A stretch of 63,298 nucleotides of DNA, filler included, from Catajapyx aquilonaris (Eukaryota): NCBI GenBank assembly GCA_000934665.2. It is 2 parts of 2 records of this genome, joined end to end, with 100 filler letters (N's around TTAATTAATTAA, not from the genome) between each part and the next. Parts side by side here need not be neighbours in the genome. Positions count along the whole stretch, not along the records: positions 1 to 31,568 come from JYFJ02004514.1; 1 more part is not named here. One strand, given 5' to 3'. The translations under genes and the position numbers were made by a program. The notes below the pieces were generated by a model. It did no database searches, had not been told where the DNA came from, and saw only the letters and a list, made by a program, of their open reading frames with translations. Positions 5,602 through 15,900 of this stretch are shown piece by piece. The stretch's first letter is position 1; each line of letters starts with the position of its first letter.

Positions 5602-8600
5602 CTAGGTAGGTACAATGGTGGTGAATTTGGTTTCTTCCATGGTTTCATCAACAGCAACTTTTTTTCCCCTCTTTTCCAGGCACGGGCAATGAATGAACTT
5701 CTGATTCCTCCCAAATAATTCAGCTTCCATCACACTAGACGGCAGGGGCAGATCGGCAGTTTCAGGAAGTAGAAGACAAAGAAGTCCTCCCACAGCAGAA
5801 GCCAGTCCCAGGATCAGGAAAGGAAGTACTGCATGATGTTTTCCCTGCATATTTGTGACAAAAGGCGGATTTGTTAGATATGAATTATTTTTCTAAGCTA
5901 AGCTCCTTACAAATTGACGTATGTTATTATTTTGTAATCGTCTGACCAAGACGGATCAGTTGTGTGCAGAACTAGCTTGTTTTTGGTTTTGTTTTTCTGT
6001 AGCGGGACGCAGCAATGGTTGTATCGATAGACACAAATGGGCATAATGGCATAAAGCCCTGCAATATATTGCGTGTGTTTCAAGCCATGCTGCACAATAA
6101 TGAAGAGCAGAACATGAACTACCATTACGTCTGCATACAAATTATAAGGTTCAGTCACGATGCAATGGTATTGAGCATGTCCCGAGAAATGCGATTGGTT
6201 ATTTTAAGACATTTGTAATGTTCGGTTGAATAAGTGATAACAATGTTTTACGTTATACAACAGATTTAAAAAAATTATTAACACTCAAGGTCTAAAACTC
6301 GGTTGCTTGTTGGTGGCTCTAATGGAGGTACAGCACATGTATTCGCTAGTTATAGTTACGAAACGTCCTAACTGGTTCAGAACAGCATGATTGTGTTCTT
6401 TAGTTTAACAGACCTTTCCAAATATAAATATCAATGTTCTTTTATCAGCCATCTAATGAAAAGAAAATAAGACACGTTACCATCCCCATCGGATAATCTG
6501 AACCAGAGACAAGTATGCTGTATACATACATGCCTGATCGTTTTCCATGATCCATGCACTCTTTTATGTGTGATAGCTCACAAAAGGACCACTGGATGTT
6601 AGTAACTAATGAGTTCAAGTTGCAAAATAAATACATATTATGGCATATTGCCATTAAAATATCGGACTGCTTATTTATGGCATACATACGCATGACATCA
6701 CTGTTAGGCCTACTCGTATTTTCAGATTGAACAGTGTTTACAAATGTTATGAAAACAAAAATAATTTCATTTTAAATAAGAGGCTACAAGCACCTGATAT
6801 TAAGGCGGCGCAGTAGTAAAAAAACAAACAAACAACAACAACAACAACAACGGTAACAATCAAAGCCCTTGGCGACGACCTAAACAAACTCACTTATGCA
6901 TGGGCAGCATATGGGAATTCGACATGTCTACGCCTCTGCGGCCGTACGGCCGCAAAAATGGTTCAATCGACACAAATATTGCACCAAAAAAATAGTAGAT
7001 GATCTGGCGCAGGGCACCTTATTCGTCTTTTTTTCCATTTTCGGCCTAAAAATGACCTTTTCATAGAGTTGAAGTGAGAGGATAATGCCGTTCCCCAAAA
7101 GCCCATTTGAATAACATAGCGGCAGGAAACGCGACAAAGTCGGGCACGCTTCTGCGCCCGTATGTTAACAATTTTAATGCAATTATATCGAGTATGGTAC
7201 CACTGTAAAGGCCAAATCTTTGCGCAGGGCACCTTATTCGTGATTTGTCAGATTAACGGCGCGTTTCGCGGCAAAAAAAATAAGTTTCCTTCGACGCGCC
7301 TACAGTATTTTTGCTAATGCGCCGCCTTAAAATAATGTAATGTTGCGCAATTTCACAGACATATTCGATCCTAATCGACAGGCCCGAGTAGAGGCAAGGT
7401 AAGTACACAAGTACAAGCAAGTACTGTACCAACAAGGTAAAAGTAGTCAACTTACCAAATAAATAATGTATGGAGAAAAGCAAGTGGCCAGATGACCTGA
7501 CACGTGGACCAAACTGCTGCCTTGTGCTCTCAGATTGGTGGGGACCAATTCCATGGTGAATTGCATGGCAGCGTTCATGGTCATGGTAATAAAGAATCGG
7601 CCCATCATGGCCATCACAGCTATCACAAATGGATCACCTGCCAATGTATGATACACCTTGTCATTTTTATACGAACAGTAACTTAAAGTAATGTAATAAC
7701 TGTAAGATAGGTATTTTATCACACATTTACGTGAGTTTGTATTCCTTGGGATATACACATAGCCTACTACTATTCACAACATTACGCTTAATTTTTTAGG
7801 TAGTACGACAGTAGGCTACTTTAAGAACTATTTTTTTTATAAATAGTGGGGTCGGAAAGTCCCAAATAGTGACGGAATATTTCACTTTTGGCGGAGAAGA
7901 TGCCATTTACGGTGCTGATACTACATCCCTTCCTGAACGTAAAACGCCCCAGACCCCAAGTTTTTAGGCTCTAATTAGCGCGTAATTAATTCATAAAAAT
8001 GGCGGTCATCAGGAAAACATATTTCGAAATCCTGGTCTTATTTACAGCTATTAATCATGTATGTCATGTTATTTTCACGCACGTTGGAGTGTGAGACTCC
8101 ATTGGAATATTTGATAATTTTAAAGGCCCACTTTATCATTATAACATTAAATATGGCCGCCAAAAGTCGGAAAATAAACTTTTCAGCTACATGGTCATGT
8201 TTGGTATGAAATCAGATGTTTTTGAGGGTGCAGAGTTCAGTGGTGGCACCAGAAATAGTGCAAAACAATCCAGGGAGTAATAATAAACTTTATTTATAAG
8301 TACAATTAATTTTCCACTAATACAAAACATGGAATGGTTACAGACAGGTAGGATATCTTGTGAATTAACGTATAGTTTCTTCAAAATACACTGTGTCGCT
8401 TACAAAAATAGCCCTGAAAGAATTGTTTAAATTCATATTTATACTATATAACATTAAATAGGGCCACCCAAAGTTGGGAAATAAACGTTTCACCTATATG
8501 GTTGTGTTTGGTATGAAATCGCATGTTGCTGAGGTTGCAGAAGTCAGGGCTGGGTCAGGGCTGATATTGTGCACTGCATAGAAAAATGCTTGACAGAAAA

Positions 8601-12900: not shown

Positions 12901-15900
12901 CTCCATAATCGACTCTCTGACACGTATCGCATGCTTCGGGAAGTTGAAGCTCAGGCAATTCTGCAAGCCAACGAGGCAGGTCTAGATCTTCCTGTGGTAA
13001 ACCTGGTTTTCCGACGAGACCGTCATTCCGAGCAGCGCCGCTATAACGATCCGACAGCCAATGAAATCGCAATGGTCTTTGCTTGGGTCTTCGTCAACAG
13101 CAATGGCGAACCTCCTTTCGAACGTGATATTCAGGTCTATCCCTTGAATCCGGTTGATCCGGACCATGCTGCCGAAATAGTGTCGGAATGCAATCGCGGT
13201 CATGTCGTTTTCTTGCCCCGAATTACCTTAGCTCCCAGTGACATCAATATGCCTTTTGTTCTCAAACGCCGCCAGTTTCCTATCATTCCAGCTTATGCCA
13301 TGACGATCAACAGGTCGCAGGGCCAGACCTTTGAGCACGTGGGCATTTACCTGGATGAACCTGTCTTCTCACATGGCCAGCTGTGTGTGGCACTGTCCCG
13401 GTCTCGCAACCCAAGTCAGGTCAAAGTATTCACTACTCCTACTGCTCAACAAGGAACATTGCTCTCCAACAACAGAGTCTTTACACATAATGTTGTATAT
13501 CGCGAGGTTTTATGAAAAAGACTTTTCTCATGTCCGACTCAAGAAGTATAGCCTACAGAATGTCCACTGATTCAATGCCACTAAATTTTTCAACCCCGTC
13601 TTACGACCAGATATACGCTATTTCTTAGTTGTCACTCCGAGAGGCCTCTCATCCCATTTTTTTCATTCCCATTGTCCTCATTGCAGGTTTTGCCAAATTT
13701 TGGCTACGGGTCCGCTAGTATAGTATAAATATGAATTTAACCAATTCTTTCAGGGCTATTTTTGTAAGCGACACAGTGTATTTTGAAGAAACTATACGTT
13801 AATTCACAAGATATCCTACCTGTCTGTAACCATTCCATGTTTTGTATTAGTGGAAAATTAATTGTACTTATAAATAAAGTTTATTATTACTCCCTGGATT
13901 GTTTTGCACTATTTCTGGTGCCACCACTGAACTCTGCACCCTCAAAAACATCTGATTTCATACCAAACATGACCATGTAGCTGAAAAGTTTATTTTCCGA
14001 CTTTTGGCGGCCATATTTAATGTTATAATGATAAAGTGGGCCTTTAAAATTATCAAATATTCCAATGGAGTCTCACACTCCAACGTGCGTGAAAATAACA
14101 TGACATACATGATTAATAGCTGTAAATAAGACCAGGATCTCGAAATATGTTTTTCCTGATGACCGCCATTTTTATGAATTAATTACGCGCTAATTAGAGC
14201 CTAAAAACTTGGGGTCTGGGGCGTTTTACGTTCAGGAAGGGATGTAGTATCAGCACCGTAAATGGCATCTTCTCCGCCAAAAGTGAAATATTCCCGTGAC
14301 TTCCGACCCCACTAAAATGAACTCCCACTTGTCATGTGGCACTGTTTGATATTCCATTTTATAATAGGCATAAAATTTATTATTTATTTATATTATTTTG
14401 TTTGTTAATTACCCAATTCTTGGGTGTTATGGACGTGCTTTAGGGCCCAACAAAATAATAAGACTAAATGTGTCAGTTTTGTTGAGCTGATCTAATATCA
14501 GGAGATGGTTTAAGGAGGGTATAACGGGATTTTTAGAGAAAAGTATTTCGCGGAGGTAGAAATATCGGGCATTCAGCCATTACATGGCGTATTGAGAAAC
14601 TTAATCGCCAGTATTACAGAAAGAACATGGTTCGTCAGAGGTAAAAAAAAAAAATTGACTGCTGGTTGTTTATTGGGAGGCATAAGGAATCATGCTGTAA
14701 ATTCATTACAAGTGTGAGACTCGAAAGGGGTCAATTCTGAGCTTAGTGATTTTTACTAAGAGAAAAATATGACAAATCATGGTATTTCGAATAACGAGTC
14801 GAGCAAGCAACTCTATATGCATATCCTGCTGTTTCCCAATGGATTCTAAGGATTACAAAAATGATATCTACATGTGGATGCCAGTACATGACTGAAGCAG
14901 TAGCAGATGCTCATGTATCTCTCCAGTCACAATTTTTTTTCACTTGTTGCACTGTAAGTTTACATGGATGGTCTACCTTTCAGGATAAAATCGCGAATCT
15001 CCATGAACACATCAGGGTGATAAAGGGCCGGAAATGTACAGATATACTGTATAATAATAGTATATCTGTGACAGTTGAGTTTTATAAAAACTTCATATAT
15101 TCACTATGATACACACGAATGGAGGAGGGACTTGCTCATGTCACAAATCCATGACAGGAAGGGTTGAAAATAGTTTAAGAGTTCCAGATTGAATTATTGC
15201 ATATCATATTACATGTAGGTTCCTGGCAGACGCCTACTAATAGCACCACACCTGCTTACAGTTGCCCTCGATTTTATCTATAGAATGCACGTGTTCCCAG
15301 CCTGACGACAGTGGAAGGTATGTGCAAGAAAAGTCCCATTAGACTTCTGGAATGCCTTGCCTAAGCATCTTGAGCACATTCTTGAAAAGCACTTTTTCAC
15401 GTTAATCTCGTATGTCCCATAACCTGGTTTTAAAACCTGTTACGTTTACTCCGGCTGCCGTGATTTATGAGAAATTCTTCTAAATATTAAAGTCGATAAA
15501 AGTCACATGTTGAATTATTGTTAGTGAAGTTCTGGTAACCATTACAGGCACCTATAAAAAGTATAAAAAAGCTCGCCTGGTTTCTAAAAAAAATATGACT
15601 ATTTTCATAATCATGATTATTATTAACTTAATCTTAATTAAGGGGAGGCGAAGTGGTGCTGCGGTAACGTACGCGCCCACGGATGTTAAGGTCCCGGGTT
15701 CGATCCCAACTCGGGGACACCCCCTTCATCTCGTGCAGAGTTCAGGGTCACCTCTGGCTTCGTCTCGGGTGGTATATCCAACAGACTAAACCACCCGGGG
15801 GAGTTCACTAAAAATGGCCACATTAAGACATTGCACTGCACCTTGCACATCCCCTCCTGTCATCCTACCCGTGGGCCCGGGCGATTCGCTCAAGGTTCCA

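What the first reader, a model, noticed from the sequence alone, without database searches (positions are those of the whole stretch)
7844..14314. Five-element, three-tier transposon nest inside one SLC22 intron, reconstructable to the base
Seen: an Academ-type element contains a TA-flanked TIR element (9337-10369), an AATT-flanked 76-bp hairpin (10715-10790) and a Helitron (11293-13718), which itself contains a TAA-flanked MITE (11863-12257). Removing each insert plus one TSD restores either the host reading frame or the partner TIR, so the nesting relationships are unambiguous. Inference: five apparently different superfamilies are stacked in 6.5 kb, either at an insertion hotspot or in a composite that travels as one unit.
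Basis: partly seen in the sequence, partly recalled or inferred. Interest (0 to 1): 0.75.

Follow-up and report, generated by a model that had tools for sequence, protein, structure and literature searches.

The report
Five jumping genes stacked in intron
A dead transposon inside an intron of a membrane-transporter gene was hit in place by three other young transposons, one of which was itself hit by a fourth; this is a real but largely ordinary pile-up, with a modest hint that this type of long-armed transposon attracts newcomers.

Summary
The nest is real at the stated coordinates. A 2.93-kb non-autonomous AcademX-like element (≈700-bp inverted arms, 3-bp TSD, remnant FEN1/XPG-fold nuclease) in an 8.4-kb intron of an MFS/SLC22-type gene holds a TA-flanked pogo-like element, a Sola1-like 76-bp MITE and a deleted Helitron, which holds a Harbinger-like MITE. 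Each is a separate young multi-copy family. It is not a travelling composite: all four junctions tested occur once in the genome, and sibling copies are empty at every site. Corrections: the Helitron has no TSD, and excision does not fully restore the host frame (a private 2-bp frameshift remains; two-thirds of the gene is deleted). The locus is not an outlier: sibling copies carry 1–3 different inserts each. Post hoc, this host subfamily carries about 2–7 times more inserts per kb than similarly aged control families (small counts), echoing the long-TIR element Galileo. The two arms here share private variants (arm homogenisation or assembly mixing). No earlier scan note covers this DNA; one note describes a smaller Academ nest in another genome. 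Verdict: new member of a known kind, low-moderate interest.

The parts
7457..7637 (-). Exon of MFS/SLC22-type transporter gene downstream of the nest-bearing intron
   Evidence: Pfam MFS_1 E=0.003; joins in frame to the exon ending at 16079; 'SLC22' label rests on recalled motifs plus MFS_1/Sugar_tr hits on other exons
7638..16078 (-). Host intron, 8441 bp, GT-AG; the nest fills 77% of it
7841..7843 (.). Left TSD of outer element (AAA); right copy 14315-14317
   Evidence: a sibling copy has a 3-bp ATT TSD
7844..8547 (+). Left TIR arm of AcademX-like element (704 bp, with internal ~300-bp subrepeat)
8560..9336 (+). Remnant transposase-associated nuclease coding part 1 (FEN1/XPG/XRN fold); joined to the arm by a deletion that removed about the first 1090 codons; +2 frameshift at ~9313
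9337..10369 (.). 1033-bp non-coding TA-TSD TIR element, pogo/Tc1-mariner-like, with GACT/TACT microsatellite
   Evidence: TA TSD in 14 of 16 complete copies; 165 terminus matches; terminus 18/20 identical to one end near a DDE_1 gene on C6235
10372..10714 (+). Academ coding part 2
10715..10790 (.). 76-bp hairpin MITE, 4-bp AATT TSD, Sola1-like
   Evidence: 4-bp TSD in 26 of 27 copies, 20 AWWT; longer relatives with the same TIR encode transposase pieces
10795..11005 (+). Academ coding part 3, Cys-rich C-terminus to stop
11194..11292 (-). Inner 99 bp of right TIR arm (preceded by a further subrepeat copy from ~11012)
11293..13718 (+). Non-autonomous Helitron-like element, A^T insertion without TSD, 5'-TTC, 3'-CTAG; RepHel ORF from 11813 with in-frame deletion of ~1000 codons near 13152-13168; strong 5' subterminal hairpin 11380-11473
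11863..12257 (.). 395-bp GC-rich MITE, TAA TSD, PIF/Harbinger-like; interrupts the Helitron ORF; 0.3% from nearest copy
   Evidence: exact 3-bp TSD in 17 of 23 end pairs, 15 TWA; 66 terminus matches
13719..14314 (-). Outer 596 bp of right TIR arm

Best explanation
Serial, independent insertion in place. An internally deleted AcademX-like element (arms plus the C-terminal nuclease third of its gene; no DDE region) was moved in trans into an AAA site of a transporter intron. It was then hit by three unrelated active families, each at its own preferred target (TA; AATT; A^T in the AT-rich right arm), and the Helitron was hit at TAA by a MITE, probably last. All of it is dead DNA spliced out with the intron, so little purifying selection removes newcomers, in a genome where many DNA-transposon families were active at once. 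Shown: boundaries, targets, empty siblings, single-copy junctions, young ages. Inferred: in-place order, trans-mobilisation, neutrality, superfamily names for the three non-coding inserts.
For: Junction patterns 1 match each genome-wide, controls 0. Siblings of host and Helitron empty at all sites. Each insert is a dispersed family with its own target rule. All young: host 1.3-2.0% substitutions from close siblings, TA element ~0.8% from family majority, Helitron 1.3% and MITE 0.3% from nearest copies, hairpin 1 mismatch in 76. Siblings carry their own different inserts: three in C7049, one at host position 1827 in C8470/C12891, foreign repeat DNA at arm position 603-604 in C2285/C7767. Neighbouring introns also hold repeats. 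The genome has many DDE_1 (54 matches) and DDE_Tnp_4 (153) loci and two intact Academ-like ORFs. Outer junctions are bridged by run contigs at single-copy depth 19-30.
Against: A lost or unassembled donor that already carried some inserts cannot be excluded (assembly has 20,583 contigs; only one junction per insert was searched). Insert density in the host subfamily (0.7-1.0/kb) is higher than in control families (0.1-0.3/kb), which plain background accumulation does not fully explain. No intact autonomous partner with these arms was found; the closest full-length relative C5463 is decayed. Inner junction-spanning run contigs were not visible in the cut table, and those runs are probably the assembly's own source.
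Confidence: 0.8

Rival explanations
1. Family-level hotspot: copies of this Academ subfamily, with near-perfect 700-bp inverted arms, are preferred targets for unrelated transposons (stem-loop/cruciform DNA, breaks or altered chromatin), and the arms recombine with each other. Compatible with the best explanation; it adds a cause for the density.
For: Excluding the window copy, 5 inserts in ~6.9 kb of sibling host DNA versus 5 clear inserts in 46.9 kb of three control families (ratio 6.8, P=0.005). The 1.47-kb Academ-end derivative, same base composition but arms only 85-91% alike, has 2 events in 17.6 kb. Recurrent sites: host 1790, 1827, 1836 and arm 603-606 hit in different copies. Window arms share private variants at arm positions 270, 372, 528-529, 600, 3/672 within versus 7-17/670 between copies; A/B termini are swapped relative to the interior in C8470/C12891. 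Precedent: Galileo (PMC2775673).
Against: Post hoc, hand counts, four copies. Controls were taken from top-scoring hits, which favours unbroken copies. Siblings lie on short, repeat-rich contigs. Half the inserts are in the coding part, not the arms. Arms are not homogenised in C7049 (6/427) or C8470/C12891 (14/671). Run contigs at 8371 and 8443 showed only the sibling allele, so the shared private variants are unconfirmed and may be assembly mixing.
Confidence: 0.25
2. The 6.5-kb composite (or Helitron+MITE) moved as one unit.
For: Outer arms and termini are intact, so it could be mobilised; a different composite in this genome does travel.
Against: All four junctions single-copy; nearest Helitron sibling C11339 (1.3%) and 8 other loci lack the MITE; host siblings lack all three inserts.
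Confidence: 0.06
3. Mis-assembly of repeats into an artificial nest.
For: Fragmented assembly; no long reads; arm-private variants not seen in run contigs.
Against: One gap-free contig; every junction has the family-correct TSD or A^T site and excises to the exact empty sibling sequence; outer junctions bridged at single-copy depth and window-specific alleles near 10044, 10669-10675 and 10880-10899 present at about single-copy depth.
Confidence: 0.03

Closest known systems
AcademX lineage of Academ DNA transposons (described in PMC10045372, passage read; Kojima 2020 not held, recalled only)
   Same: 3-bp TSD, nuclease (FEN1/XPG-type fold) rather than helicase, long TIRs, ~1500-aa homologues across animals, Cys-rich C-terminus
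   Different: Non-autonomous deletion derivative with only the last ~420 codons; no direct comparison with Repbase/Dfam possible
Galileo/GalileoN of Drosophila buzzatii (PMC2775673, passages and section 10 part 1 read)
   Same: Non-autonomous long-TIR (~600 bp) element carrying nested, single-site insertions of other class II families; TIRs >99% alike within a copy but divergent between copies
   Different: Galileo cases sit at inversion breakpoints with exchanged TSDs; here TSDs are intact, no inversion shown, different superfamily, three inserts plus a second tier
Sola1 MITEs (PMC3845634, passages read)
   Same: 4-bp AWWT-type TSD, G-starting TIR of ~30 bp, deletion series from coding elements
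   Different: Only 76 bp; assignment of the coding relatives (Pfam DUF7869) to Sola1 is recalled
Helitron-like elements, HLE1 (PMC11417382, PMC2817418, passages read)
   Same: A^T insertion, no TSD, 3'-CTAG, RepHel homology
   Different: 5' end is TT, not TC; 3' hairpin weak; strong 5' subterminal hairpin; Rep core and most helicase deleted
pogo/Tc1-mariner and PIF/Harbinger MITEs
   Same: TA TSD (PMC5199201, PMC3845634 passages) and TWA TSD (recalled hallmark) with short TIRs
   Different: No coding capacity; direct autonomous partners not shown

Membership tests
AcademX | 3- or 4-bp TSD (PMC10045372) | tested here: met
   AAA here; ATT in C8470/C12891, whose pairing as one copy is inferred; no TSD at the more distant C1547 copy
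AcademX | Encodes a nuclease, not a helicase, beside the transposase (PMC10045372) | tested here: met
   Model pLDDT 90.6; XRN2 Z 11.7 rmsd 3.6 over 212, FEN1/EXO1 Z 10.5, XPG Z 9.7; no helicase family in 29 aligned members
AcademX | DDD/E transposase domain in the full-length element | tested here: inconclusive
   Deleted here. C5463 covers the whole of homologue P0006 and shows conserved acidic motifs that I recall as Academ's triad; no Pfam DDE model hits
AcademX | Sequence match to Repbase/Dfam Academ transposases | not testable with these tools
   No such library; homologues are unnamed
Tc1/mariner-pogo | TA TSD with TIRs | tested here: met
   14 of 16 complete copies
Tc1/mariner-pogo | Shares ends with a DD(E/D) transposase-coding element | tested here: inconclusive
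   Best of 30 DDE_1 loci: 18/20 match at one end on C6235, partner end not found; none in 16 unpaired termini fetched, 5 of which ran into contig ends
Sola1 | 4-bp AWWT TSD (PMC3845634) | tested here: met
   26 of 27 copies with 4-bp TSD, 20 AWWT
Sola1 | Shares TIR with a Sola1 transposase-coding element | tested here: inconclusive
   4 longer same-TIR elements all match P0029, a DUF7869 protein; DUF7869 = Sola1 is recalled
Helitron-like element (broad) | RepHel homology; insertion without TSD; 3' CTRR | tested here: met
   65% and 73% identity to P0032 (PF14214+PF05970) residues 100-400 and 1421-1535; 12 of 12 3' ends CTAG|T, 4 of 4 5' ends after A
Canonical HLE1 | 5'-TC start | tested here: not met
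   5'-TTC in 4 of 4 ends; filed only as Helitron-like
Canonical HLE1 | GC-rich 3' subterminal hairpin | tested here: inconclusive
   5-bp stem, z -0.01 against shuffles
PIF/Harbinger MITE | 3-bp TWA TSD (recalled hallmark) | tested here: met
   17 of 23 end pairs exact, 15 TWA
PIF/Harbinger MITE | Shares ends with a DDE_Tnp_4-coding element | tested here: inconclusive
   C2474 has the MITE 5' part upstream of a DDE_Tnp_4 frame, but Sola-like pieces interleave and no partner end was found; no terminus match in 30 DDE_Tnp_4 loci
Mobile composite transposon | Same inner junctions at two or more loci | tested here: not met
   1 match each for 4 junctions

The most novel reading that the evidence does not exclude
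Near-perfect long inverted arms make this Academ subfamily a magnet for unrelated transposons, independent of locus, and the arms are homogenised and flipped by recombination within a copy; insertion density would then track arm identity (high in the 98-99% subfamily, background in the 85-91% derivative), giving a natural test of whether palindromic DNA structure steers transposon targeting.
Probability: 0.2. Interest if true: 0.55.

Novelty: new member of a known kind. Interest (0 to 1): 0.3.

Why it matters
As it stands it is a clean teaching and benchmarking case: five young class II families with base-exact empty-site controls, showing that Academ, pogo-like, Sola-like, Helitron and Harbinger-like elements were active together in this genome. 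It would matter more if the subfamily-level enrichment holds, because it would separate DNA structure from locus or reduced recombination as the reason nested insertions pile up in long-TIR elements, a question left open for Galileo.

Tried and rejected
Pfam and PDB sequence searches gave no name for the Academ piece; only the fold search did. The AcademH paper, the DDE-superfamily paper and the Galileo hotspot paper were not held, so Academ triad motifs, TAG termini, the Cys finger and the TWA rule are recalled. No autonomous partner was found for the TA element or the MITE. The two intact Academ-like ORFs (C7397, C7766) are 34-35% identical to P0002 and have different TIRs, so were rejected as direct partners. 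The 'TA TSD' around the Helitron is a coincidence of the TATA site. No RNA holder listed, so no statement on expression or splicing. No empty-allele joint 7843 to 14315 was listed, but contigs drop rare variants and the three well-covered runs are one sample; the second sample held 0.04 of the words and was not interpretable. Helitron copies (0 inserts in 18.5 kb aligned) were left out of the rate test because their internal structure varies; the old copy C5463, C1547 and the C982 fragment were left out of the sibling count; L122, L128, L130 were dropped from the MITE divergence count. Flanking TE density around the sibling copies was not measured. Paper searches for a nested DNA-transposon hotspot with Helitron and MITE and for Academ found no report of Academ as a preferred target; most subscription papers are not searched and no supplements were read. 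No earlier scan note near this place.
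Full report
Observation. The outer element 7844-14314 has TAG...CTA ends and AAA on both sides; once the Helitron is cut out its arms align over ~700 bp. Inside are 9337-10369 (TA TSD), 10715-10790 (AATT TSD), 11293-13718 (A|TTC...CTAG|T, no TSD) and, within the last, 11863-12257 (TAA TSD). The host gene is on the minus strand; its exons hit MFS_1/Sugar_tr (the finer label SLC22 is from recalled motifs) and the two exons around the nest join in frame over an 8441-bp intron, 7638-16078. 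The region lies in one gap-free contig. Contigs of public runs bridge both outer junctions at single-copy depth (19-30); inner bridging contigs were not visible in the cut table, the three well-covered runs are one sample and probably the assembly's source, and there are no long reads.

The host. Without inserts it is 2930 bp: left arm, a deletion junction, about 420 codons, right arm. The coding part matches residues ~1090-1510 of a 1546-aa Hydra protein at ~45% and a 1432-aa relative at 59-66%. Pfam and PDB sequence searches name nothing, but a confident model (pLDDT 90.6) has the 5'-nuclease fold of XRN2 (Z 11.7, rmsd 3.6, 212 aligned), FEN1/EXO1 (Z 10.5) and XPG (Z 9.7). A passage in PMC10045372 says AcademX makes 3-4-bp TSDs and encodes a nuclease, AcademH 9-10-bp TSDs and a helicase; this fits AcademX. 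A decayed near-full-length relative (C5463) covers the whole protein, and two intact Academ-like ORFs of other subfamilies exist. Excising the TA element and hairpin with one TSD each gives exactly the sibling sequence, but a private +2 duplication at ~9313 and a change at 9305 remain: the frame is not fully restored. Direct comparison with Repbase was not possible, and the Academ motifs I recognise are recalled.

The inserts. TA element: TA TSD in 14 of 16 complete copies, 165 terminus matches, non-coding; the closest terminus among 30 DDE_1 loci matches 18 of 20 bases, so pogo-like by inference. Hairpin: 4-bp TSD in 26 of 27 copies, 20 of them AWWT, the Sola1 hallmark in passages of PMC3845634; four longer elements with the same TIR carry pieces of a DUF7869 protein. 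Helitron: 65% and 73% identical to the start and end of a 1538-aa RepHel with ~1000 residues deleted in frame; 12 of 12 3' ends CTAG|T, 4 of 4 5' ends A|TTC, so the canonical 5'-TC of HLE1 (passages of PMC11417382, PMC2817418) is not met and the 3' hairpin is weak. MITE: exact 3-bp TSD in 17 of 23 end pairs, 15 TWA, 66 terminus matches; its removal restores the Helitron frame; Harbinger-like by a recalled rule, partner not shown.

Composite or in-place stacking. One junction per insert was searched with up to 2 mismatches: 1 match each, this locus. Close host siblings are empty at all three sites and 9 of 9 Helitron loci given are empty at the MITE site. By contrast a different composite, a 1.47-kb Academ-end derivative inside a short MITE, shows one inner junction at 14 loci with different flanks. 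All five elements are young: 1.3-2.0% from close siblings (host), ~0.8% from family majority (TA element), 1.3% (Helitron) and 0.3% (MITE), 1 of 76 (hairpin). The simplest history is serial insertion in place, MITE last; order among the three first-tier inserts is unresolved, and a lost donor cannot be excluded.

Hotspot. The locus is not special among its kin. C7049 holds a SINE-like insert and two TTAA-flanked TIR elements (one 99% to another copy); C8470 and C12891, read as one copy from a shared ATT TSD and a shared break point, hold a repeat at host position 1827; C2285 and C7767 run into foreign repeat DNA at arm position 603-604, 2-3 bp from the Helitron site here. That is 5 inserts in ~6.9 kb against 3 in 2.93 kb here (P=0.44). 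Neighbouring introns also hold repeats. What is not fully ordinary is the family rate: controls of like or greater age show 1 insert in 19.7 kb (22 TA-element copies), 2 in 9.6 kb (26 MITE copies) and 2 events in 17.6 kb (12 copies of the 1.47-kb derivative): ratio 6.8, P=0.005, falling to 2.4, P=0.09 if 14 control events are assumed to allow for truncated copies. These are post hoc hand counts on four copies, controls came from top-scoring hits, and sibling contigs are short and repeat-rich.

Arms. Left and right arms here differ at 3 of 672 sites but at 7-17 of ~670 from full-length sibling arms and share variants at arm positions 270, 372, 528-529 and 600 that no sibling has; in C8470/C12891 the two terminus types are swapped relative to the interior. 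This suggests recombination between arms. Against it: other copies are not homogenised (6/427, 14/671), and run contigs at 8371 and 8443 showed only the sibling allele, so assembly mixing is possible.

Known parallels. PMC2775673 (passages and section 10 part 1 read) describes non-autonomous GalileoN copies with ~600-bp TIRs, each holding two nested single-site insertions of other families, and TIRs >99% alike within a copy versus ~7% between copies. Both the nesting and the arm pattern are therefore of a known kind. My paper searches found no report of Academ as a preferred target, within a library lacking most subscription papers; three relevant papers were not held and no supplements were read. 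An earlier scan note on another genome calls a two-element Academ nest ordinary; I did not check it.

Verdict. Real, base-exact, five kinds, three tiers; not a travelling unit; not a special locus; new member of a known kind; interest 0.3. The open lead is the subfamily-level excess of inserts (probability ~0.2 that it reflects arm structure).

Noticed in passing
G000 C3886, C2457, C3103, C2404, C971, C4869, C2454, C909, C2654, C5991, C132, C1570, C4150, C213 (L138-L156): A true travelling composite: a ~1.47-kb Academ-end derivative (85-87% to the window arms) sits at the same inner site of a ~165-bp TIR MITE at 14 loci with different outer flanks; three copies carry a further shared 213-bp insert.
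   Followed up: partly
L145 (C10359): Academ derivatives abut head to tail, terminus directly against terminus.
   Followed up: no
L158 (C7397:1322-5659) and L159 (C7766): Intact 1446-aa and 1580-aa Academ-like ORFs with their own 389-bp and ~220-bp TIRs; candidates for recently active elements.
   Followed up: partly
window 11380-11473: Strong 43-bp-arm hairpin near the Helitron 5' end (z -11.2), kept in sibling copies; together with the 5'-TT start it departs from canonical HLE1 ends.
   Followed up: partly
window 24329-24404: A second 76-bp AATT-flanked hairpin of unrelated sequence but the same size and GAATC...GATTC ends as the nest's hairpin.
   Followed up: no
window 15641-16007, 16304-17336, 18360-18581, 6804-7330, 1625-2300: Further repeats in and near the same gene: a young high-copy SINE-like element (96-99%), TIR elements and MITEs.
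   Followed up: partly
L013 (C7049:4577-8542): Sibling host copy with its own stack: SINE-like insert in the arm and two TTAA-flanked TIR elements about 10 bp apart.
   Followed up: yes
L188 (C2474:20265-23900): Another tangle: the MITE's 5' part, Sola-like fragments and a DDE_Tnp_4 frame interleaved.
   Followed up: partly
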